Of a stretch of DNA of 22,826 nucleotides, positions 8,148 to 16,395 are shown in pieces. The notes beneath the pieces are model-generated. The model was not told the DNA's origin, searched no databases, and was given only the letters and a program-made list of their open reading frames with translations. The position numbers were made by a program, and so were the translations under genes. How positions within the stretch are numbered: the stretch's first letter is position 1; the number at the start of each line of letters is the position of its first letter. The stretch comes from a virus (taxonomy: Duplodnaviria > Heunggongvirae > Uroviricota > Caudoviricetes): IMG/VR virus record IMGVR_UViG_2724679293_000023, one strand, 5' to 3'.

Positions 8148-8498
8148 GTGTCTAGCATGAAATTGGCCTAAGTTTAATATTAAACGTCTTGCGGGACGCG
8201 TAATGTTAACTGGGCTTTTCTCTATCTGCCGTTGGTGTTCATGCCCGAGGCAGATAGCCTCAAGCACACGCAGCAATTTTACTTAACTATTTTTCCGAAA
8301 AATTAATTATTACTAATGCATAGTTTATAAATCACACGATGATATTATAAATCTAGTGTAAGGGAACATTTAAGTTAAGAATCACATTTTACTAGCCAAA
8401 AACATAAAACAGATCTCTTAATAATAAGCAGCTTTTATATAAAAACCACGATGTGTTTTCATAATAATATGCAGTACCAGCTACTCAGCAATATGAGG

Positions 8499-9017
8499 TT
8501 ATTCAGTCAAGCTTTTGCGCCCGTACGCACTTCTCAAACTTGCACATGTTTCTCTAATCCTAACAATTTGCATACAATCAGGTCTTAGAGGTCGGTTGTG
8601 AACATCACTATCATATGTCATGGCTTGGCGTAATTCCTTAAACAATTTTGCCTTATATTTTTCACCACCGGCCCTTTCAATTTCTTTAGCGATAGTAGTT
8701 AAACTCTTAACCTCCCTACTCATTTTTGCTAACGCCAGTGTAGGTTCTTTATTATTATCTTCAGCCCAGAACTCTAAGGCAAAATCCTCAAGCAACTCCA
8801 GTTTTTGTCTAAACTCACCGATCCATTCATTATGAGCATCTTTAATAGCATCTCCTCTACTTTTTGTGGTTTGGAGATAAGCAATATATGCCGTAATCCC
8901 CCATCCAACTAAAACTAAAAACCAAGTTACATACTGATTTTCATCTTTAAACAAAGAAAAAAACTTACACCAAAAGTCTGCACTCCAAGTACAGACCTGG
9001 ATACTTGAATTAGCCAT
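8499..9017 (-). CDS. Single-pass membrane protein (172 aa), third gene of the low-GC cassette
   Basis: Predicted TM helix VTWFLVLVGWGITAYIAYL followed by a charged helical region; start ATG overlaps the upstream gene stop (ATGGCTAA at 9010-9017); low GC. Confidence 0.6.
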   Translation of the reverse strand: MANSSIQVCTWSADFWCKFFSLFKDENQYVTWFLVLVGWGITAYIAYLQTTKSRGDAIKDAHNEWIGEFRQKLELLEDFALEFWAEDNNKEPTLALAKMSREVKSLTTIAKEIERAGGEKYKAKLFKELRQAMTYDSDVHNRPLRPDCMQIVRIRETCASLRSAYGRKSLTE

Positions 9018-9324
9018 GAGATACCTTTATAGCGTCCTCGATATATTCATTTATCTCGTCAATTAACTCAGGTTCTTCTTCTGAGATAAATTTAATCCCT
9101 TTAACCTTATCAGGACTCACGCCACGCCTAATCAATCCGCCAAAGCACTCCTCCAAGAAAGAAGAACCATACCCCTCCGTTCCATCAAGGTCTATTGTTA
9201 GATCTGGTGAATGTTTAAGCTCTCTTTCTACCCACTCACGAAACTCCTCACCAGAAGCGGGCCCCAATCTTTTAAAACGAGGTCCTGGGCAAGGATAACG
9301 ACTGGCTACTTTTATAATTTTCAT
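9010..9324 (-). CDS. Small STAS-like (DUF4325-type) protein, second gene of the cassette
   Basis: About 104 aa from Met MKIIKVAS (ORF extends to 9363); motif LTIDLDGTEGYGSSFLEECFGGLIRRG resembles STAS-like/anti-sigma-antagonist folds; ATG at 9322-9324 lies 1 nt after the upstream TAG stop. Confidence 0.55.
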   Translation of the reverse strand: MKIIKVASRYPCPGPRFKRLGPASGEEFREWVERELKHSPDLTIDLDGTEGYGSSFLEECFGGLIRRGVSPDKVKGIKFISEEEPELIDEINEYIEDAIKVSHG

Positions 9325-9325
9325 A

Positions 9326-10492
9326 CTACTCAGTTTCCACCTCACAAGGAATTGTCCATTCAATTATAGTACCATTAACAGAGCTTTTGTAATCTCTAAG
9401 CACTTCGTTAATAATGCCAGTTTTCCCTTTGTAAATATAGCGCCCTTTTGATGAAAAAATCCCCATAAAACCATCACCTATTGAATCGATTACCGATTTG
9501 ATATCATTCAAGCCTTTACCTCGGTTCAGCTCCCCAGTCCTCGTTTCCTGAAGTAACGTGGAAGCCTTTATATAAGTAGAATCCTTTACATTTGCTAATG
9601 GAACTCTAAGTTTTTTGAAGATGTTCATTAGCACACTTACACCTTGTGTTTTAGGCAATGTTGAAGGTATTCCCACTCCTTTATCACATATTACCACTGT
9701 AAGATTTTTGTCATGTATGCCAGCAAAGGTCCACCACTTAGCTGTTTCGTCATCTTCCGTATGCATAAAATCATCAACATAAGCATGCTCGACAGAATTA
9801 GACATGGCCTCAGTAAAGCCACGGTATAATTTTTTTGATGATTTTCTTTCTAACTCTTTTTTTATTTCCACCATCATTTCTTTTGCTAAAAGAGGCTCAG
9901 AACAAGAACCTGATGTATATTTCCAAAAAGTCACATCATCATAACTTTCAGTTTCTCTTTTAGGTTTCCTTAATAGATCATAGAAACCGACTTGATTCAA
10001 AATGCTTTCAATTTTCTTGTCTTTCGGATGTGAAAACCCTATGGCATTTACTCCAAATTCACTTTTCTTAATAAGCACATCAACTTCAGCGAGAAAAGAT
10101 AACATAGCAGCTGCACTTATATATTTAGTTGAAGAAAAATCTATATAAACACGATTATTCTTCAACACGCAATCGCGTAAATTATTTAAAAATTTATTCA
10201 TGATTTCAAAATCACGATCGTTGTAATAATTAATAGATATCGGAGCAGAAAAAACCACCCTTTTATTACTTGTTGTCAACTTTTTCTTCGAGACTCGTAG
10301 CTTACGAGTGCGTTTGTAATATTCCAGTTTTCTCTTCGCATTTTCTACTCCTTCCCAATCCGTGCTTTTCAGAGAATTAAATATCCCCCTCTTCAGTTTC
10401 GAAACTTGCCCGCGATAGTTTAGTTTTTGAACTTTTCTTCTTTTTTGCAGATTCATAAATATTTTCACATTTGATAACATCGCAGATATCAT
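9326..10492 (-). CDS. GHKL-superfamily ATPase, RsbW/SpoIIAB-like serine-kinase type, with basic N-terminal region and internal STAS-like segment
   Basis: 388-aa ORF; Bergerat-fold motifs in the C-terminal half: N-box TEAMSNSVEHA (ExxxNxxxHA), G1 ICDKGVGIP (DxGxG), G2 NRGKGLNDI (GxGL); middle segment VYIDFSSTKYISAAAMLSFLAEVDVL is STAS-like; K/R-rich N-terminus; start codon uncertain (no clear SD); low GC. Confidence 0.6.
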   Translation of the reverse strand: MISAMLSNVKIFMNLQKRRKVQKLNYRGQVSKLKRGIFNSLKSTDWEGVENAKRKLEYYKRTRKLRVSKKKLTTSNKRVVFSAPISINYYNDRDFEIMNKFLNNLRDCVLKNNRVYIDFSSTKYISAAAMLSFLAEVDVLIKKSEFGVNAIGFSHPKDKKIESILNQVGFYDLLRKPKRETESYDDVTFWKYTSGSCSEPLLAKEMMVEIKKELERKSSKKLYRGFTEAMSNSVEHAYVDDFMHTEDDETAKWWTFAGIHDKNLTVVICDKGVGIPSTLPKTQGVSVLMNIFKKLRVPLANVKDSTYIKASTLLQETRTGELNRGKGLNDIKSVIDSIGDGFMGIFSSKGRYIYKGKTGIINEVLRDYKSSVNGTIIEWTIPCEVETE

Positions 10493-10728
10493 ATTTCACA
10501 TGAAAAATTTTTTGTAGCCCCTCCATCAAAGAAAATCGCTGCCTTTATCAAAAACATTTCGAAATTGTCAGCAACTTAACGTCCCCCCACCCCAACAGTA
10601 AAATTGATCCCACTAGCTCAAGTGAAAGTCACCCCGTAACATCCTGTTGATACCCAGCGCCTGCGCTTTCGCTCTTACAGCATAACAAGAACGATCGATC
10701 CCCCATATGCTTTCTACCGTCAACGTGC

Positions 10729-11190
10729 CTACACACTGCCCTGAGTGCCATGATTTCCCTCATGCATAACCTGTTCACCGAATATCTCTCGAAAACCATT
10801 CTGGTAAAACGCCAGTACGCGCTGCATAGCTTCGCTCCTCCGACACTCGCGACAGATTATGTTCAGACGCCTGTCATAGCGGCGTATTTCTCCGTCTGGT
10901 AATGAATAAACCAGGTCCGGGTCGCTCTTTTTTTTCACTGCTGCTTTCGACATCTTTTTGCGGGCCTTTATCCAGTCCTTACGTGCCTGTTCAGACGGAA
11001 ATAACCCGTAGCCGGAGTTGTATAAATCGCCACTGGCAACCAGCTCTCTGGCAAGAACACTCATCAGATACCTTGTCGCACCTGTCTTAGCTTCCAGTTG
11101 TCGTAACGTCTCGCGCCCACTCTGGCGCACGAGCTCAACAACCTTCCCCTTAATTTTTTCCCGCTCTTCTTGTGTAAATACTTTTGCCAT
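10729..11190 (-). CDS. Hypothetical phage protein with possible winged-helix segment (153 aa)
   Basis: Start at Met MAKVFTQ with SD GGAGG 6 nt upstream; lysine-rich middle; no confident family. Confidence 0.4.
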   Translation of the reverse strand: MAKVFTQEEREKIKGKVVELVRQSGRETLRQLEAKTGATRYLMSVLARELVASGDLYNSGYGLFPSEQARKDWIKARKKMSKAAVKKKSDPDLVYSLPDGEIRRYDRRLNIICRECRRSEAMQRVLAFYQNGFREIFGEQVMHEGNHGTQGSV

Positions 11191-11205
11191 AAGCGCCTCC
11201 GGCAA

Positions 11206-11814
11206 TCACTTTTCCGATGCAACATGGCGGGAAGAATCAGTAATCTGTCGTACAATATCCCTGTGCTTGTTCAACTCACGCAGCGCGGCGCAGACACGCT
11301 CCCACTTCTGGACATGATTTTTCGCCCGACGCAGTTCGCGGTTTGCCATATGCAGTGATGGTAAAACCAGGTCATCCGCTCGCGTTTCAGTAAACGATGG
11401 CAGCGACTGCACAATGTCCGCCACAGTTTCTGTTTTAATATCTTCCTGTGTTGCAGCCTCCTGTACTGGTAACGCAACACCTGCGGGCTGAGGAAAGGCC
11501 TTACCATCAGTTTCCGCTACCGATGCTGCTTTCGGCTCTGCTGGTAAATTATCGCCCGGTATGCAGTAACGAAATTTACCGCCCTGATTTACGCGAATCA
11601 GACGACCTTTGCTGATTGCCATTGCCAACGTTGAAGCCACTTTGCGTGATGTGGTACCAAACAATGTAGCCAGCTCATCCGCCGTTTGTGGTCCACGTTG
11701 TTCAATCGTCGCAGTTAAATCGCTCTCTGAAATTTTCGCGACTGTTGCCGTGGTAGTTTCTTCCGGCAGTTCTGCCGGCGCTGGCTGTTCCTGCTGAACG
11801 TTGTTATCAGCCAC
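11206..11814 (-). CDS. Hypothetical acidic phage protein; likely the 3' part of a gene frameshifted at an A-run
   Basis: ORF begins with GTG and has no SD; its reading frame stays open upstream exactly to the A6 run at about 11852-11857 where the upstream ORF frame arrives. Confidence 0.4.
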
Positions 11815-11836
11815 ACGCCAGGTATACGCGCTTTTA

Positions 11837-11968
11837 TCAACGAAACCAGCCTTTTTTCAGTTCCCATAGTTCGTTCAGCACTTTTTCACGACTGATATCA
11901 AGTCGCGCAGCAAGTTCTATGGATGTGGCTTTTCCCATCGCTTTCAGTGCGTCAAAAACAGTCTCCAT
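11837..11968 (-). CDS. Small HTH-like protein (43 aa), probably the 5' part of the frameshifted gene
   Basis: Start at Met METVFDAL with strong SD GGGAGGAAA; sequence [27 protein letters not shown] looks like a winged-helix recognition region; ends 7 codons after the A6 run. Confidence 0.4.
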
Positions 11969-11990
11969 TAAAATTTCCTCCCGGTAAAAA

Positions 11991-12737
11991 TCACTTCGCA
12001 ATTCCTGGCTGGACGACATTCGGACGCCAGCTCTCCCAGTTAAAATTCACCCATCGCCCGCCGTTCATGGTCATGCGATCCATAATCCGCTCGCCGAGCA
12101 ATGTTTTCATGGCCTCATAGTTCAGGTTTGTCAGCATCCCCACGCTGCGCATCGACGCTGTCCGGCGATCAACAATCTGGTGCAGCACCACCTGCTCGTT
12201 TTTCGTCTCGCGCTGAATGCCAATTTCATCAAGAACCAGCAGATCTACTTCGCACAGCTCCCGCAAAAATTTTTCGCCTGACTGCCCGTCGTCATAGCTG
12301 GCGTGCAGGGCGCTCATAACATCAGCCACGGTAACCACAATCACTGTCTGACCGTCTTTCAGCAGGCGATTCCCGATAGCTGCCGCTAAGTGATTCTTCC
12401 CGGTACCAGGTTTTCCGCTGAACGCAAAATTTGTACACCCGGTCATCAGTTCATCGGCGATGGATTTCGCCTGGCTTAACGCGTATCGCTGGCCGTCGTT
12501 CTGCACCTGGTAATTCGCAAACGAGCATTTACGGTGCAACGGCTGGATGCCTGAACGATTCAGAATTTTTTCCACCCGCAACTGGCGATTCAGGCGGTTG
12601 ATCTCCTCGCTACGTTTCTGGCCTTCAGCAAGTTGCCACTCGCGCCACTCCGCTACCGTTCTGAATGGGGCGGTTACATGTGGCGGGGTCAGTCGGCGGA
12701 TGCGTTCCAGAACGCCGCCTGTCGCAATATTTTTCAT
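11991..12737 (-). CDS. DnaC-like helicase loader (AAA+ ATPase), phage replication protein
   Basis: 248 aa; Walker [18 protein letters not shown], Walker [10 protein letters not shown] and overall similarity to E. coli DnaC / Rac YdaV as I recall them. Confidence 0.85.
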
Positions 12738-12743
12738 GGTCCG

Positions 12744-13532
12744 TTACCCCCTGAAGCCTGGCGGGATCGCACTGTCCGGCAACGAGACAGTGTTAACCTG
12801 TCGGAGCAACGTCTCAGGCCGAACACCTTTCGGCGCGAACAGGCCCTGGTATTCATTGGCGATGCTGTGTCGAATCACCTGCTCAGGTGTAAAACCCTGC
12901 TGACGGAATTTTTCCAGCTCCCGTATCGCCCCGTTAGCGCCCTGCTCCGTTCGAATCGGTTTTCGCAATGCCTGCCTGAACTTAACCCACTCATGCCAGA
13001 GTGTTTCCGGCAACCAGTCAGGCAGCTCGATAGCCTCCGGCTCGAATTTTTTAGACGCTCGTTTTTGGCGAGGGGGATTTAGGGGGAGATCAGTATTTAT
13101 ATCTTCCTCTTCCTCTTCCTCTGGTAACGCTTTTTGATCCGTTTGTGTAACGCTGCCAGCGTTACCTTTTCGTTTCAGTTCGCGTATTTTTGTAACTCGC
13201 TCGTTTGTAACCGCCCGTTTTTTAGAGCTTTTTCCGTTATGACGTTCAAAGTTAGGTAGAGAAAGCCCACCGTCATTTTCGACCAGCCATCCAACCTGAA
13301 TTAACGCATCAGCAAAACCAGCCATAAAAGTGATGCGGTCTATTGCACTTTTTGTAACGCCGCGAGCGTTACAATCTGCATTACCGTCTATCATTTGTTG
13401 ATCCGCCCATGCCCAGAAGCGAATAACCTTCCCTAATGCGGCATCTGGATCAATATTCAGAATCTCAGCAAGCCTGAATATTTCCGGCTTATCCGGCGTA
13501 ATAACCTCGAGCTTTATCCAGTTTGAAGCCAT
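12744..13532 (-). CDS. Replication initiation-associated protein (YdaU-like / O-like partner of the DnaC-like loader)
   Basis: 262 aa directly upstream of the DnaC-like gene; acidic interdomain linker PEEEEEEDINTD; gene body contains palindromic iteron-like sites. Confidence 0.55.
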   Translation of the reverse strand: MASNWIKLEVITPDKPEIFRLAEILNIDPDAALGKVIRFWAWADQQMIDGNADCNARGVTKSAIDRITFMAGFADALIQVGWLVENDGGLSLPNFERHNGKSSKKRAVTNERVTKIRELKRKGNAGSVTQTDQKALPEEEEEEDINTDLPLNPPRQKRASKKFEPEAIELPDWLPETLWHEWVKFRQALRKPIRTEQGANGAIRELEKFRQQGFTPEQVIRHSIANEYQGLFAPKGVRPETLLRQVNTVSLPDSAIPPGFRG

Positions 13533-13565
13533 TTGTTTTCACCTTGTAACGCTCGCAGCGTTACA
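13146..13565. repeat. Three copies of a palindromic motif TGTAACGC-N5-GCGTTACA (13146-13165, 13352-13374, 13545-13565), plus extra TGTAAC half-sites at about 13191-13212
   Basis: Read directly; arms are exact reverse complements in each copy with a 5-nt spacer; copies are about 200 bp apart, two inside the YdaU-like gene and one in the upstream intergenic region. Confidence 0.7.
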
Positions 13566-13609
13566 TTTAACTGATACCGAACAAAACAATCCGGCACGAT
13601 CAATTTCAA

Positions 13610-14032
13610 TCAATGCACTACGACAGAATCGCCGGGCGACCCACCACCGCTGAAATGTGCTTTCCGGTAAACGGCCTGGACTGCATCATCATGCGCATCA
13701 ATTGCCGTACTCAACGCTTCCTGCGCCGCCAGTAATGCACGGCGTTCCAGGGTATCGAAGATACGGAGTCGGTGACGCAGCTCGCGCGGAAGAATTGCCA
13801 GAACCGCAGGGATCAGTTTCTGAATTTTTTCCCTTTGCGCTTTCGTTTCACCTTTCAACCAACGGTGATAGATATTCTGCTGATTGTTCCAGTCCTTGCC
13901 TGGTACAAGGGGCAATTCGCCGCCCCCCTGGCGCAGATATTCTTCAGTAATTGCGTTAGCGACCCACGCCTGCCCTTTTTCGGCTGCCAGGGCCAACAAC
14001 ACTGATTCGATATGCTCATGCCTGATTTTCAT
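13610..14032 (-). CDS. ydaT: YdaT-like (CII-like) protein
   Basis: 140 aa MKIRHEHIESVLLALAAEKGQAWVANAITEEYLRQ... matches my recollection of Rac YdaT; ATGA overlap with the upstream Cro-like gene. Confidence 0.6.
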   Translation of the reverse strand: MKIRHEHIESVLLALAAEKGQAWVANAITEEYLRQGGGELPLVPGKDWNNQQNIYHRWLKGETKAQREKIQKLIPAVLAILPRELRHRLRIFDTLERRALLAAQEALSTAIDAHDDAVQAVYRKAHFSGGGSPGDSVVVH

Positions 14033-14271
14033 GAATCAACCGCTCCTATGCTGTTTTCGCTATGCTTACCGTCTGGGGGGAATACATCGTCAAGTCCACA
14101 ATGAGCGCCAAGCCGATTAAGGGTAGAAACAATTTTTCTGCACTCCTCTAGCCCAGGGGTACGAAAATTTGCTTCGTAATTTGCCAGTCGGCTTTGTATC
14201 CACCCTAACTGAACAGCGAGTTGTCTTTGAGACAACCCAAGCTGTTTTCGATATGTTGAAATTTTGTTCAT
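14029..14271 (-). CDS. Cro/YdaS-like HTH (XRE family) DNA-binding protein
   Basis: 80 aa with HTH LGLSQRQLAVQLGWIQSRLANYE; divergent from the repressor gene; SD GGAGG upstream. Confidence 0.7.
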   Translation of the reverse strand: MNKISTYRKQLGLSQRQLAVQLGWIQSRLANYEANFRTPGLEECRKIVSTLNRLGAHCGLDDVFPPDGKHSENSIGAVDS

Positions 14272-14295
14272 TGAAAACCTCCGATGACAATTTTA

Positions 14296-14356
14296 AACAC
14301 ACCTTGTGTTATATGGTCAAGCTGTTTTGTGTTTTATGTAAATCACGATTCGTGAT
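14296..14356. promoter_or_regulatory. Candidate operator region between the divergent cro-like and repressor genes (palindromes AACACA-CCT-TGTGTT at 14296-14310 and ATCACGA-T-TCGTGAT at 14342-14356)
   Basis: Two perfect 15-bp palindromes in the 96-bp divergent intergenic region; the second ends 12 nt before the repressor ATG. Confidence 0.5.
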
Positions 14357-14367
14357 ACAAGGATGCA

Positions 14368-14787
14368 ATGGAAAAAGAAAACGAAAAAATTGCCGCTAGT
14401 AGGCTCAATGACAAAATTGCAATGCGTCTTAAAGAGCGCAGGCAGAAGCTTGGTTTATCTCAAGGAAAACTTGCTGAAATCTGCGGATGGACGCAATCGC
14501 GTATAGGTAACTATGAGGCGGGCAGCAGAAATGTTGGAGTGCATGACGCTGTCGTATTGGGAAAGGCACTTGGCATATCTCCTCCTGAGCTCCTCTTTGG
14601 AGAACAGGAATCTTCTGAATTGTGGTTAAATGAATCCCAACGAAAACTTCTTGAGTTGTTTAACCAGCTACCGGGCTCAGAACAACAACGAATGATTGAG
14701 TTATTTGAAGTCCGGCTAAAAGAAATCGATGAGTATGTAGAAAAATATTTGAGAGGCAGGCTTAAAGATAATCCCCCACCGGAGTAA
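14368..14787 (+). CDS. Prophage repressor, XRE/DicA-like HTH protein without peptidase S24 domain
   Basis: 139 aa; HTH LGLSQGKLAEICGWTQSRIGNYE; C-terminal LLELFNQLPGSEQQRMIELFEVRLKEI resembles DicA as I recall it; no Ser-Lys autocleavage module. Confidence 0.75.
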   Translation: MEKENEKIAASRLNDKIAMRLKERRQKLGLSQGKLAEICGWTQSRIGNYEAGSRNVGVHDAVVLGKALGISPPELLFGEQESSELWLNESQRKLLELFNQLPGSEQQRMIELFEVRLKEIDEYVEKYLRGRLKDNPPPE

Positions 14788-14817
14788 TGATCTTGCTATC
14801 ACAGTAATATGCCAATC

Positions 14818-14841
14818 AGCCCGCTATCAGCGGGCTTTTTT
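14818..14841 (+). terminator. Intrinsic terminator after the repressor gene
   Basis: 8-bp stem agcccgct/agcgggct with 3-nt loop followed by T5. Confidence 0.6.
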
Positions 14842-14883
14842 GTACCATCATCATATGACACCCACCACAAAACACATTTCGTG

Positions 14884-14912
14884 TTGACACAAGAAAACGT
14901 ATTGTGTTTAAT
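14884..14912 (+). promoter_or_regulatory. Candidate early leftward promoter (pL-like): -35 TTGACA 14884-14889, 17-bp spacer, -10 TTTAAT 14907-14912
   Basis: Consensus -35 and 5/6 -10 with optimal spacing; flanked and overlapped by AACAC/GTGTT and CACAA/TTGTG inverted motifs (14871-14906) similar to the half-sites near the repressor gene. Confidence 0.5.
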
Positions 14913-15092
14913 AAGCATATCCAAACAACGCCCCACCAGAGAACGGCAGGACAATACCTCGAGTTATCCAGCCACTGAACAGGGCTAAGTAGCCAGCCTG
15001 AGGCATACGAACATGACGGCAGTTGTTGATTGATACAAAGCGCAGTAGATAAAACGTTCCGCCACCCGGCGTTAAGGGGAAATGAGGTCAAC

Positions 15093-15245
15093 ATGGATAC
15101 TATCGATCTTGGCAACAACGAATCTCTGGTATGTGGCGTGTTTCCCAATCAGGACGGCACATTCACCGCCATGACGTATACCAAAAGCAAAACGTTTAAA
15201 ACCGAAGCTGGCGCACGTCGCTGGCTTGCCAGAAATACTTGCTAA
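15093..15245 (+). CDS. YdaF-like small protein (DUF1391-like, 50 aa)
   Basis: MDTIDLGNNESLVCGVFPNQDGTFTAMTYTKSKTFKTEAGARRWLARNTC from an internal Met with SD; resembles Rac YdaF from memory. Confidence 0.5.
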   Translation: MDTIDLGNNESLVCGVFPNQDGTFTAMTYTKSKTFKTEAGARRWLARNTC

Positions 15246-15641
15246 TCCATTATTTGGATTAATTCAATATTCTCGCTGTAGGGGTATAGCAGAAACCACC
15301 AAAGCCCGGAGGTGGTGAAATAAAACCGGGCACAACACGAAGGCGCATTTCCGATATCCATAAAGAGTCGGTCTTGTCTGTTAAATTTAAATGGTGGGAG
15401 TGCGCCTCCGGTTGTAAATAACGACATTGCTATGTGTAGTCTTTGGCGGCATCAGTTCTACTCCGTGGCTGCCCTGCCGCCCCTTTTTAAAGTGAATTTT
15501 GTGATGCGGTGAATGCGGCTAAGCGCACGCGGCACAGTTAAAAGCATCAGTGTTATGGGTGGATTATCCGGCGTTAATTGTTAACTGGTTAACGTCACCT
15601 GGAGGCACCAGGCACCGTATCGACAAAATTCATTTGTAAAA

Positions 15642-15875
15642 ATGGAGATAATTATGATTGCTCATCACTTCGGAACTGATGAAATACCACGTCAGTGTGT
15701 GACCCCTGGCGATTATGTTCTTCATGAAGGTCGGACATATATCGCCTCGGCAAACAATATTAAAAAGCGAAAACTTTATATTCGTAGCCTGACTACAAAA
15801 ACATGCATTTCTGACTGCATGATTAAAGTCTTCCTCGGTCGTGATGGTTTACCTGTAAAGGCGGAGTCATGGTAA
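15642..15875 (+). CDS. kilR: KilR-like cell-division inhibitor
   Basis: 77-aa ORF (track) [39 protein letters not shown]... matching my recollection of Rac KilR; start may be the second Met. Confidence 0.65.
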
Positions 15876-16045
15876 TAACTAAGAAAATAAAATGTGCTTA
15901 TCACCTTTGCAATAAAGAAATTGAAGAAAGCAAAATCATTACAAGACCACTTCATTTCATGCGTGGAGTTATACCAACGACGGAAATGAAAAAATATTGT
16001 AGTGAAATCTGTGCCGAAAAAGACCAGATGGCACACGAACTTTAA
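15869..16045 (+). CDS. YdaE-like small Cys-rich (putative Zn-binding) protein, about 58 aa
   Basis: Hand-translated ORF below the track threshold: [24 protein letters not shown]...[18 protein letters not shown]; start overlaps the kilR stop; coordinates approximate (plus or minus 1). Confidence 0.45.
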
Positions 16046-16119
16046 TTAACTGACTATCCGAAACTAAATTTATGCCAGCAATGGCAGGGATTCGCTCAAC
16101 CTTAATTAAGGAGAAAAAC

Positions 16120-16395
16120 ATGATTACCAGTTATGAAGCCACTGTTGTAACGACCGATGACATTGTTCACGAGGTTAATCTGGAAGGAAAGCGTATTGGC
16201 TACGTGATTAAAACAGAAAATAAAGAAACCCCATTCACTGTGGTTGATATCGACGGTCCATCAGGCAACGTAAAAACACTTGATGAAGGTGTCACAAAAA
16301 TGTGCCTGGTTCACATCGGAAAGAATCTGCCCGCAGAAAAAAAAGCCGGATTTCTGGCAACTCTGATTGCAATGAAATTAGGCGGTGAAATCTGA
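16120..16395 (+). CDS. racC: RacC-like protein (91 aa)
   Basis: Internal Met MITSYEATVVTTDDIVHEVNLEGKRIGY... preceded by SD AAGGAG; resembles Rac RacC from memory. Confidence 0.55.
   Translation: MITSYEATVVTTDDIVHEVNLEGKRIGYVIKTENKETPFTVVDIDGPSGNVKTLDEGVTKMCLVHIGKNLPAEKKAGFLATLIAMKLGGEI

What the first reader, a model, noticed from the sequence alone, without database searches (positions are those of the whole stretch)
8499..10492. Low-GC three-gene cassette: RsbW/SpoIIAB-type GHKL ATPase + STAS-like protein + membrane protein (candidate novel defence or partner-switching module)
Three minus-strand ORFs are translationally coupled: TAG-T-ATG at 9322-9328 and an 8-nt ATGGCTAA overlap at 9010-9017. 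They lie in a visibly AT-rich block (about 8280-10510) between the replication/nin genes and hok, a classic moron position. The 388-aa protein has Bergerat-fold motifs (N-box EAMSNSVEHA, G1 DKGVGIP, G2 GKGL) of the anti-sigma-factor serine-kinase class, a basic N-terminus and an internal STAS-like stretch. The second protein is a STAS-like fold and the third has one TM helix and could be an effector. Partner-switching kinase/antagonist pairs are well known for sigma-factor control, but I cannot match this trio to a named anti-phage system from memory.
Basis: partly seen in the sequence, partly recalled or inferred. Interest (0 to 1): 0.85.

Follow-up and report, generated by a model that had tools for sequence, protein, structure and literature searches.

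The report
Kinase–STAS–membrane protein prophage cassette
A low-GC three-gene cassette in an E. coli Rac-like prophage encodes a SpoIIAB-like serine kinase, its small STAS-like substrate and a one-helix membrane protein; it looks like an unnamed, widespread membrane-effector relative of the VapKSC anti-phage toxin-antitoxin system described in 2026, but no function has been tested.

Summary

The A-B-C order recurs in nearly every one of about 85 loci whose contig extends far enough, across several phyla; none has a PIN toxin. Carriers include prophages, satellites, plasmids and defence islands. In Marinobacter phage AS1 the trio follows cI, where rexAB sits in lambda.

The nearest described systems are CapK/CapS and VapKSC (EMBO J 2026), and the kinase homology to them is remote. 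PADLOC has no match.

Best reading (about 0.55): the kinase phosphorylates B on infection and releases the membrane protein C, causing abortive infection. This rests on analogy and context only. I class it as a new variant of a known kind.

The parts
8280..10560 (.). Low-GC foreign block holding the cassette. It fills a hypervariable cargo slot of Rac-like/lambdoid prophages, between the DUF977 gene and hok/sok.
   Evidence: GC is 0.31-0.41 against about 0.50 in the flanks; the cassette ORFs (8499-10492) are 36.6% GC against 49.1% for the window outside this block. The block is present in only 24 of 5426 complete E. coli genomes, all at >=99.9% identity. In other genomes the same slot holds QueH, an alpha/beta hydrolase, beta-protein+sce7726, DUF4209, DUF5677, FRG, DUF7167, a methyltransferase, the paa adhesin, or nothing.
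9326..10456 (-). Gene A: 376-aa STAS-GHKL protein, a putative serine kinase. The open frame extends to an alternative ATG at 10492 (388 aa).
10259..10456 (-). A residues 1-66: very basic region with a helical hairpin (helices 3-31 and 34-52) and a low-confidence linker (residues 54-63). It occupies the place of the HTH domain of CapK.
   Evidence: AF2 secondary structure, pLDDT about 85-90 for the helices. Net charge +19, with 23 K/R in 66 residues. Basic character is kept in distant homologues.
9902..10258 (-). A residues 67-185: internal STAS-like alpha/beta domain. The position of the phospho-serine is occupied by alanine (ISAAAM), so this is a sensor or pseudo-substrate domain rather than a substrate.
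9329..9901 (-). A residues 186-376: GHKL (Bergerat) ATP-binding domain of the anti-sigma-factor kinase type. N-box 9782-9811 (EAMSNSVEHA), G1 9665-9685 (DKGVGIP), G2 9509-9523 (RGKGL), G3-like 9356-9382 (SVNGTIIEW).
   Evidence: Invariant E216, N220, H224, D258, G260, G262, R312, G313, G315, G362, T363 in 26 homologues. Coordinates checked. The N-box aligns to RsbW 'SEACTNAVQHAY'. Pfam HATPase_c and HATPase_c_2 only reach E about 0.02, below threshold. hhalign to the VapK GHKL domain gives probability 92%.
9010..9324 (-). Gene B: 104-aa STAS-like protein (DUF4325), the putative kinase substrate and antitoxin-like partner. It carries a G-Y-G-S54-S55-F-L-E-E motif (9136-9174) and an acidic C-terminal helix.
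   Evidence: PF14213 E=5.6e-12, 45.6 bits against a cut-off of 23. VapS is also PF14213, E=2.7e-17. S55, F56, L57, E59 and F61 are invariant in 20 diverse homologues. hhalign places S54 opposite VapS S48. In a non-significant alignment (probability 0.8%) the SSF motif lies opposite CapS DSSF, which would put S55 opposite the phospho-site S54. The last 25 residues have net charge -8.
8499..9017 (-). Gene C: 172-aa single-pass membrane protein, the putative effector. It has a short N-terminal segment with two conserved Cys (8967-8993), a TM helix (about 8862-8936) and a cytoplasmic four-helix bundle.
   Evidence: No Pfam, NCBIfam or PADLOC family; weak phrog_34309 match. AF2 pLDDT 79, with a long helix 28-85 plus a bundle. 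In a jackhmmer search, 80 of 81 hits among 4909 ORFs lie directly after a B gene. Flank charges (+2.3 on the C side, -0.5 on the N side; 61 of 67) indicate N-out/C-in topology. C9 and C17 are nearly invariant in enterobacterial homologues.
9322..9328 (-). A-B junction: TAG-T-ATG (stop of A, one base, start of B).
   Evidence: Read from the sequence. Short gaps or overlaps between A and B are seen across loci.
9010..9017 (-). B-C junction: ATGGCTAA, where the start of C overlaps the stop of B by 8 nt. This suggests translational coupling, as in toxin-antitoxin pairs.
   Evidence: Read from the sequence. B-C gaps of about -7, -3, 0 or +1 nt recur in many loci.
10457..10728 (-). 272-nt region upstream of A. 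Any cassette promoter would lie here, and none was found.
   Evidence: The consensus scan found no minus-strand sigma-70-like site here. DNA homology to a 75%-identical cassette stops at 10456, so this region is not part of the conserved unit.

Best explanation
The cassette is an accessory three-gene module carried by mobile elements. It is built on the same logic as VapKSC: a sensor kinase, a STAS-type inhibitor and an effector.

A is a SpoIIAB/RsbW-like serine kinase. Its extra domains, the basic hairpin and the non-phosphorylatable STAS-like domain, would sense an infection or DNA-damage cue, possibly single-stranded nucleic acid as for CapK. B is its small DUF4325 substrate.

In the resting lysogen, B would bind the cytoplasmic helical bundle of the membrane protein C and keep it inactive. 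On activation, A would phosphorylate B on the invariant serine at the start of helix 2 (S55, or the adjacent S54). B would then let go, and C would act at the inner membrane. The likely action is oligomerisation and collapse of membrane potential, which stops growth of the infected cell and so protects the population (abortive infection).

Shown here: the domain identities, the invariant catalytic and serine motifs, the strict A-B-C linkage, the topology of C, and the mobile and defence-type contexts.

Inferred by analogy only: phosphorylation of B by A, binding of B to C, toxicity of C, the trigger, and phage protection.
For: Domain identities:
- A has the fold and invariant N, G1 and G2 boxes of anti-sigma serine kinases, plus a STAS-like domain.
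- This is the architecture of VapK and CapK, to which A is remotely related (hhalign probability 92% and 90%).
- B and the experimentally characterised antitoxin VapS fall in the same Pfam family.
- B has an invariant Ser in the motif GSSFLEE. Its S54 aligns with VapS S48, and its SSF resembles the DSSF around CapS S54. The paper maps CapS phosphorylation to S54 and supports VapS S48 by S48A and S48E mutants (PMC13373217).

Linkage:
- In 87 loci from Gamma-, Beta- and Alphaproteobacteria, Desulfobacterota and Campylobacterota, and from 52 viral contigs, A is followed by B in every locus where the contig continues.
- In all but one of those loci a TM-bearing ORF follows B. In most it belongs to the C family; five divergent loci (L022-L025, L027) have a TM protein that the C profile does not detect.
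- The start and stop codons often overlap. No VapC-like gene follows in any locus.
- No phosphatase gene is part of the cassette, which fits a one-way switch.

Context:
- In E. coli the cassette fills a hypervariable prophage slot.
- In Klebsiella/Raoultella it is cargo of a P4-like integrative element, next to putAbiC in one case.
- In one metagenome contig it sits in an integrase/capsid satellite-like element.
- A Vibrio fluvialis island carries tandem copies beside HipA.
- A 14-kb Acinetobacter plasmid carries it beside RelE/ParE.
- In Marinobacter phage AS1 it lies directly downstream of the CI repressor gene and divergent from cro, the position of rexAB in lambda.
- Neighbours within 8 kb in 26 genomes include Drt4, DISARM-I genes, MzaC/E, PD-T4-6, PDC-M68, HEC-09 and R-M methylases.

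Horizontal transfer: low GC and presence in 24 of 5426 E. coli genomes at >=99.9% identity.

Precedent: VapKSC gives about 2 logs of protection against phage Bas42 (PMC13373217).
Against: - No experiment exists for this family.
- Homology of A to VapK and CapK is remote: 7-12 bits with a plain HMM, detectable only by profile-profile comparison.
- The Pfam HATPase models are not passed.
- The fold of C is a generic four-helix bundle without a specific structural relative. Nothing shows that it is toxic or pore-forming.
- No complex prediction could be run for A-B or B-C.
- No promoter was found upstream of A. In the E. coli prophage the genes are co-oriented with the CI-repressed early operon, so expression in the lysogen is unproven.
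- Defence neighbours were counted over pooled ORFs without a background rate, so enrichment is not quantified.
- None of the three proteins matches a PADLOC model.
Confidence: 0.55

Rival explanations
1. Classical partner switch with the roles reversed. A, like an anti-sigma factor, sequesters C or another target. Unphosphorylated B displaces that target from A when kinase activity falls, for example when ATP drops during infection. Phosphorylation of B would then be the OFF state and loss of phosphorylation the trigger.
For: The best structural matches of A are SpoIIAB and RsbW. In established knowledge these work by binding sigma factors and being displaced by unphosphorylated SpoIIAA or RsbV, and RsbW-RsbV responds to ATP level. 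No phosphatase is encoded.
Against: In the nearest characterised relative, the STAS protein binds the effector directly and the phosphomimic releases it (PMC13373217). The tight B-C start/stop overlap suggests a B-C pair. A carries extra sensor-like domains that SpoIIAB lacks.
Confidence: 0.15
2. A stress-response or addiction (toxin-antitoxin) module of mobile elements. It responds to DNA damage and stabilises its carrier, and phage defence is at most a side effect.
For: It is found on a small plasmid next to RelE/ParE and next to hok/sok in the window. It also occurs on satellites and islands. The authors of the VapKSC work themselves note that the line between immune and stress pathways is blurred.
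Against: The position directly after cI in phage AS1 and the defence-gene neighbours fit a role against incoming phages. VapKSC does protect against a phage.
Confidence: 0.15
3. A prophage-serving function other than abortive infection. One option is superinfection exclusion, with C blocking DNA entry at the membrane under A/B control. Another is regulated control of lysis or induction timing.
For: C is an inner-membrane protein with a short periplasmic N-terminus carrying two conserved cysteines. The cassette is prophage-borne in 52 viral contigs and co-oriented with early genes in E. coli.
Against: The same trio occurs outside prophages, on plasmids, satellites and chromosomal islands. The bulk of C is cytoplasmic. 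No link to lysis genes was seen.
Confidence: 0.1
4. The ORFs are decaying or functionless hitchhikers, and the motif matches are coincidental.
For: Pfam HATPase scores are below threshold. One viral contig has A split by a frameshift (L047).
Against: All three proteins are conserved with invariant motifs down to 23-30% identity across phyla and keep their order. There are thousands of homologues.
Confidence: 0.02

Closest known systems
VapKSC (VapK kinase, VapS STAS antitoxin, VapC PIN toxin), Chambers et al., EMBO J 2026 (PMC13373217)
   Same: Three-gene operon in the order kinase, small STAS protein, effector. The kinase has a STAS-like domain plus a GHKL domain. The small protein is Pfam DUF4325 with a conserved serine at the start of helix 2 and a short C-terminal helix. 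No phosphatase is encoded. It is found near defence genes and on mobile elements.
   Different: The third gene is a single-pass membrane protein with a four-helix bundle, not a PIN nuclease; 0 of 87 loci have a VapC-like gene. A has an extra 66-residue basic N-terminal region with a helical hairpin and is only remotely related to VapK (11.9 bits with a plain HMM). Nothing has been tested experimentally.
CapK-CapS regulators of immune operons (same paper)
   Same: STAS-GHKL kinase followed directly by a STAS-domain substrate. The SSF serine motif is shared with CapS (DSSF, phospho-site S54), although the alignment is not significant. hhalign between A and CapK over the STAS and N-box regions gives probability 90%.
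   Different: A has no HTH domain and B has no winged-HTH DNA-binding domain. No immune operon follows: a single membrane-protein gene follows, then hok/sok. This is therefore not a transcriptional regulator pair.
SpoIIAB-SpoIIAA and RsbW-RsbV partner-switching modules (sigma-factor control)
   Different: No sigma factor or PP2C phosphatase is in the locus. A is 2.5 times larger, with a fused STAS-like domain and a basic hairpin. B belongs to DUF4325, not the canonical STAS family. The output appears to be a membrane protein.
Lambda RexA-RexB (functional analogy only; from established knowledge)
   Same: A prophage-encoded cytoplasmic sensor plus an inner-membrane effector. In phage AS1 the cassette occupies the rexAB position directly after cI.
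   Different: No sequence similarity was found: the PHROGs hits are all families of unknown function. RexB is polytopic, whereas C has one TM helix. No kinase/STAS step is known for Rex.
Csx28, the Cas13b-associated membrane pore protein (PDB 8gi1)

Membership tests
GHKL / Bergerat-fold ATPases, anti-sigma-factor serine kinase class (SpoIIAB, RsbW) | N-box with a Glu and the Mg-binding Asn (E-x-x-x-N) | tested here: met
   E216 and N220 (plus H224) are invariant in 26 homologues down to 23% identity. The motif is at window 9782-9811 and aligns to the RsbW N-box.
GHKL / Bergerat-fold ATPases, anti-sigma-factor serine kinase class (SpoIIAB, RsbW) | G1 box (D-x-G-x-G) and a glycine-rich G2 box / ATP lid | tested here: met
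   D258, G260 and G262, and R312, G313 and G315, are invariant.
GHKL / Bergerat-fold ATPases, anti-sigma-factor serine kinase class (SpoIIAB, RsbW) | Bergerat fold closest to the anti-sigma kinases | tested here: met
GHKL / Bergerat-fold ATPases, anti-sigma-factor serine kinase class (SpoIIAB, RsbW) | Passes the curated Pfam or NCBIfam model (HATPase_c_2, HATPase_c, RsbW, SpoIIAB) | tested here: not met
   15.8 and 15.4 bits against cut-offs of 27.4 and 26.4. RsbW and SpoIIAB NCBIfam models score 13.4 bits against 145 and 135. A is therefore a divergent branch, not an orthologue of RsbW or SpoIIAB.
GHKL / Bergerat-fold ATPases, anti-sigma-factor serine kinase class (SpoIIAB, RsbW) | Serine kinase activity on the STAS partner; binding of a sigma factor | not testable with these tools
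   Needs biochemistry. No sigma factor gene is in the locus.
DUF4325 / STAS-like (PF14213) | Passes the Pfam gathering score | tested here: met
   B scores 45.6 bits against 23, E=5.6e-12. All 120 listed homologues of the B profile carry PF14213.
DUF4325 / STAS-like (PF14213) | Conserved Ser/Thr at the N-terminus of helix 2 (the phospho-acceptor of STAS substrates) | tested here: met
   S55 is invariant in 20 diverse sequences, and S54 is present in all but the Campylobacterota sequences. S54 aligns with VapS S48. The SSF motif lies opposite CapS S53-S54-F55 in a non-significant alignment.
VapKSC toxin-antitoxin defence system | VapK-like kinase with STAS and GHKL domains | tested here: inconclusive
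   The architecture is the same and hhalign probability is 92% over the GHKL domain. A plain HMM gives only 11.9 bits, and A has an extra basic hairpin. It is a remote relative in a separate clade.
VapKSC toxin-antitoxin defence system | VapS-like DUF4325 protein encoded directly after the kinase | tested here: met
VapKSC toxin-antitoxin defence system | VapC (PIN-domain) toxin as the third gene | tested here: not met
   The third gene is a TM protein with no PIN hit. A jackhmmer search with VapC found no hit among 4909 ORFs of 87 loci. The cassette is therefore not filed as VapKSC.
VapKSC toxin-antitoxin defence system | ssDNA-activated kinase; phosphorylation releases the toxin; protection against phage | not testable with these tools
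   Requires experiments or multimer and nucleic-acid structure prediction.
CapK-CapS transcriptional regulators | N-terminal HTH in the kinase and C-terminal winged HTH in the STAS protein | tested here: not met
   The N-terminus of A is a two-helix basic hairpin with no HTH family hit. B is 104 aa with only the STAS-like domain.
CapK-CapS transcriptional regulators | Located directly upstream of a multi-gene immune operon (CBASS, Bub, Thoeris and others) | tested here: not met
   Only gene C follows, then sok/hok. The pattern is the same in the other loci.
Any system in PADLOC-DB v2.0.0 | Significant match of any of the three proteins to a defence-system model | tested here: not met
   The best E-values are 0.026-0.039, to unrelated models.

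The most novel reading that the evidence does not exclude
The trio defines a large, still unnamed family of phosphorylation-gated membrane-effector immune systems. A SpoIIAB-like kinase with its own sensor domains would release a single-pass four-helix-bundle protein from a DUF4325 inhibitor to kill or arrest the infected cell. That would be the first partner-switching-type circuit known to drive a membrane effector in phage defence. Judging by 1246 cluster representatives at E<=1e-30, it may be commoner than the VapC-type that has been described, although the two counts come from different databases.
Probability: 0.45. Interest if true: 0.72.

Novelty: new variant of a known kind. Interest (0 to 1): 0.6.

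Why it matters
This cassette suggests that the same switch also drives a membrane protein.

The version seen here is widespread and is often carried by prophages, satellites and plasmids. In one phage it sits where lambda keeps rexAB.

If confirmed, three things follow:
- A new effector class would join a modular sensor.
- E. coli would offer an easy model, because the cassette is native to E. coli prophages.
- About two kilobases of 'ATP-binding protein / STAS-like / hypothetical protein' annotation in thousands of genomes would be explained.

Tried and rejected
- PADLOC, NCBIfam and Pfam gave no named system. The only PHROGs hits are families of unknown function.
- Megablast of the block against GenBank phages found nothing.
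- A sequence search of B against PDB chains gave only chance hits. The VapS and CapS entries were either absent from the copy or too distant.
- A profile search of A against PDB sequences gave only a marginal RsbW N-box hit, E=0.37.
- The promoter and terminator scan found nothing convincing upstream of A or downstream of C. By eye, only weak -10-like hexamers appear.
- The repeat search found only short matches that are probably chance.
- Literature searches found no paper other than the CapK/VapK work and its preprint. They used the terms DUF4325, STAS with HATPase, GHKL or abortive infection, SpoIIAB with anti-phage, and the three RefSeq accessions. The DefensePredictor paper has no STAS system.
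- I could not locate the ssDNA-stacking aromatic residue of VapK (F54) in the sequence extracted from the PDF. No residue-level comparison of the proposed DNA groove was therefore made.
Full report
**What is in the window.**
The window is a Rac-like lambdoid prophage of E. coli, 99.97% identical over window 4197-22554 to strain F2_407_2_2.

The three ORFs are A (9326..10492 as an open frame), B (9010..9324) and C (8499..9017). The start of A is most likely ATG 10456, giving 376 aa. RefSeq uses it, homologues start there, and DNA homology to a 75%-identical copy ends exactly at 10456.

It is present in only 24 of 5426 complete E. coli genomes, always at >=99.9% identity.

**Protein A.**
Pfam sees the GHKL domain only faintly (E about 0.02, below threshold). 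Even so, an alignment of 26 homologues down to 23% identity keeps the catalytic motifs invariant: E216, N220 and H224 (N-box), D258, G260 and G262 (G1), R312, G313 and G315 (G2), and G362 and T363.

The first 66 residues carry a net charge of +19. In the internal STAS-like domain the position of the phospho-serine appears to be alanine (ISAAAM). This comes from my hand alignment to the SpoIIAA motif and is inference; it would make the domain a sensor or pseudo-substrate rather than a substrate.

**Protein B.**
B is a clear DUF4325 'STAS-like' protein (45.6 bits against a cut-off of 23). Twenty diverse homologues share G-[YF]-G-S-S-F-L-E-E-[AS]-F-G-G, with S55, F56, L57, E59 and F61 invariant. 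The last 25 residues form an acidic tail (net -8).

**Protein C.**
C has no family in Pfam, NCBIfam or PADLOC. The model (pLDDT 79) is a long helix that includes the TM segment, followed by a helical bundle.

Flanking charges across 67 distinct homologues average +2.3 on the C-terminal side and -0.5 on the N-terminal side. The C-side is the more positive in 61 of the 67, which puts the bundle in the cytoplasm. Two nearly invariant cysteines in the short N-terminal segment of enterobacterial homologues fit a periplasmic location.

**The trio is a conserved unit.**
- In 26 genome loci found with the A profile, every A gene is followed at once by a B gene (Gamma-, Beta- and Alphaproteobacteria, Desulfobacterota and Campylobacterota). 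In all 25 of those loci whose contig continues, a 130-198 aa ORF with an N-terminal TM helix comes next.
- Adding 52 IMG/VR viral contigs and other loci gives 87 loci. The same order holds wherever the contig continues, with one exception: L073 has no third ORF at my thresholds. In the five most divergent loci the TM protein is not recognised by the C profile.
- A jackhmmer search seeded with C against all 4909 ORFs of these loci returned 81 hits, 80 of them directly downstream of a B gene. A search seeded with VapC returned none.
- B-C overlaps of a few bases recur.
- DNA similarity between the E. coli copy and a 75%-identical copy covers exactly start-of-A to stop-of-C, so the three ORFs are the mobile unit.
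- The A family has 1246 cluster representatives at E<=1e-30 and 3725 at E<=1e-3 in a library of 1.84 billion representatives. The B profile finds 4954 clusters.

**Where it lives.**
- In E. coli the slot between the DUF977 gene and hok/sok is hypervariable. Other genomes carry QueH, an alpha/beta hydrolase, beta-protein plus sce7726, DUF4209, DUF5677, FRG, DUF7167, a methyltransferase, the paa adhesin, or nothing.
- In Klebsiella/Raoultella the trio is cargo of a P4-like element (integrase, AlpA, D5 primase), once next to putAbiC.
- A metagenome copy sits in a small element with an integrase, a capsid gene and a protease gene.
- A Vibrio fluvialis island beside HipA holds two complete tandem cassettes and the start of a third, which is cut by the locus end. 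One of them has a 187-193 aa kinase made of the GHKL domain alone.
- A 14-kb Acinetobacter plasmid carries the trio beside RelE/ParE.
- In Marinobacter phage AS1 the trio (genes 41-40-39) follows a CI-type repressor gene (Phage_CI_repr, 32 bits) and is divergent from a Cro/YdaS-type gene. From established knowledge, that is where lambda keeps rexAB.
- Among 250 neighbouring ORFs within 8 kb in 26 genomes, PADLOC recognises Drt4, a DISARM class I gene set, MzaC/E, PD-T4-6, PDC-M68A/B, HEC-09, PDC-S13 and several methylases. This count is pooled and has no background control, so it shows association but not enrichment.

**Comparison with what is known.**
The only paper in the library that joins STAS, GHKL and phage is Chambers et al., EMBO J 2026. 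It makes two relevant findings.
- CapK (HTH-STAS-GHKL) is activated by ssDNA and phosphorylates CapS (STAS-wHTH) on S54, which de-represses immune operons.
- In VapKSC, VapS binds and inhibits the PIN toxin VapC, and the S48E phosphomimic abolishes both binding and neutralisation. The authors infer that VapK phosphorylates S48, but could not show it directly. The system gives about 2 logs of protection against phage Bas42.

That paper does not mention a membrane-protein variant.

Using the published sequences, I tested the relationship directly.
- VapS is DUF4325 (E=2.7e-17), the family of B.
- The B profile aligns S54 with VapS S48.
- The SSF of B lies opposite the DSSF of CapS, which would put S55 opposite the mapped phospho-site S54; that alignment is not significant (probability 0.8%).
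- The A profile matches the VapK GHKL domain (probability 92%) and the CapK STAS plus N-box region (90%). With a plain HMM the scores are only 7-12 bits.

A is therefore a separate, distant clade with the same architecture. The cassette fails the defining third feature of VapKSC, because it has no PIN toxin. It also fails the defining features of CapKS: it has no HTH domains and no downstream operon. I do not file it under either.

**Mechanism.**
The best-supported reading transfers the VapKSC logic. B holds the cytoplasmic bundle of C inactive. A cue sensed by the accessory domains of A activates the kinase. Phospho-B lets go, and C acts at the membrane to arrest or kill the infected cell.

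The parts, their conservation, their linkage and the contexts are shown. Every interaction and the phenotype are inferred. I put this at about 0.55.

The main rivals are:
- a reversed, SpoIIAB-style partner switch in which A sequesters the target and falling ATP is the trigger (0.15);
- a stress or addiction module without a primary anti-phage role (0.15);
- a prophage function such as superinfection exclusion (0.10).

Two weak points should be kept in view. No promoter was found upstream of A, and in E. coli the genes are co-oriented with the repressed early operon. Also, the fold of C is uninformative.

**Verdict.**
The finding is not categorically new, because the kinase plus STAS principle in immunity was published in 2026. 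It is an undescribed and apparently widespread variant, with a different kinase clade and a membrane protein as the third component, and it is absent from PADLOC. Interest is 0.6.

Noticed in passing
L032 10001-13455 and 19973-21134 (Vibrio fluvialis genomic island): The island holds two complete tandem kinase / DUF4325 / TM-protein cassettes and the start of a third, which is cut by the locus end. The middle cassette has a 187-193 aa kinase made of the GHKL domain alone (HATPase_c E=3e-5), so the fused STAS-like domain and hairpin are dispensable in some variants. HipA, RadC, DUF2787 and a Beta_protein gene are neighbours.
   Followed up: partly
L088 4115-6493 (Marinobacter phage AS1, MK088078, genes 42-39): The cassette lies directly downstream of a CI-type repressor gene (Phage_CI_repr, 32 bits) and divergent from a Cro/YdaS-like gene. 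This is the lysogeny transcript position that rexAB occupies in lambda.
   Followed up: partly
L047 7965-9132 (IMG/VR contig of an E. coli prophage, otherwise identical): Gene A is split into two ORFs (227 + 159 aa) by an apparent 1-nt insertion, while B and C are intact. If real and not a sequencing error, loss of the kinase is tolerated, as expected if the kinase is the trigger and not the antidote.
   Followed up: no
window 7946-8269: A hokD toxin ORF (7946..8158, minus strand) and a sok antitoxin RNA (Rfam RF01794, 97.6 bits, 8096-8269) sit immediately downstream of the cassette. Two membrane-acting killer modules are therefore adjacent.
   Followed up: partly
window 7000-12000 compared with 5426 E. 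coli genomes: The slot between the DUF977 gene and hok/sok is a hypervariable cargo site in lambdoid prophages. Alternative cargo includes QueH, an alpha/beta hydrolase, beta-protein+sce7726, DUF4209, DUF5677, FRG-domain, DUF7167, a SAM methyltransferase and the paa adhesin. It is empty in BL21(DE3). Several of these are themselves uncharacterised candidates.
   Followed up: partly
window 4550-4805, 5726-5927, 15431-15482, 20480-20658, 22220-22364: The prophage carries many known small RNAs: AgvB and STnc100, C4 antisense RNA with its a1/b1 targets and isrK, DicF, and RalA (the RalR antitoxin). SraC/RyeA-SdsR/RyeB at the right end marks the host chromosome next to the integrase side.
   Followed up: no
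window 4892-4951: Rfam reports a tRNA (37.3 bits) and RefSeq annotates tRNA-Met at the matching place of the related genome, but ARAGORN finds no tRNA in the window.
   Followed up: no
window about 4197-4206 compared with L001 6862-7917: The related strain F2_407_2_2 has an IS903B insertion, splitting DUF1737/DUF6645 genes, that is absent from the window. The window therefore comes from a different strain carrying the same prophage.
   Followed up: no
protein B against PHROGs (window 9013-9324): B matches positions 344-439 of the 441-position profile phrog_5816. This suggests that some phages encode a long protein with a C-terminal DUF4325 domain, possibly a kinase-STAS fusion.
   Followed up: no
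window 9068-9085 and 9896-9913: An 18-nt inverted repeat, 94% complementary with arms 810 nt apart, has one arm in B and one in A. It is probably chance.
   Followed up: no
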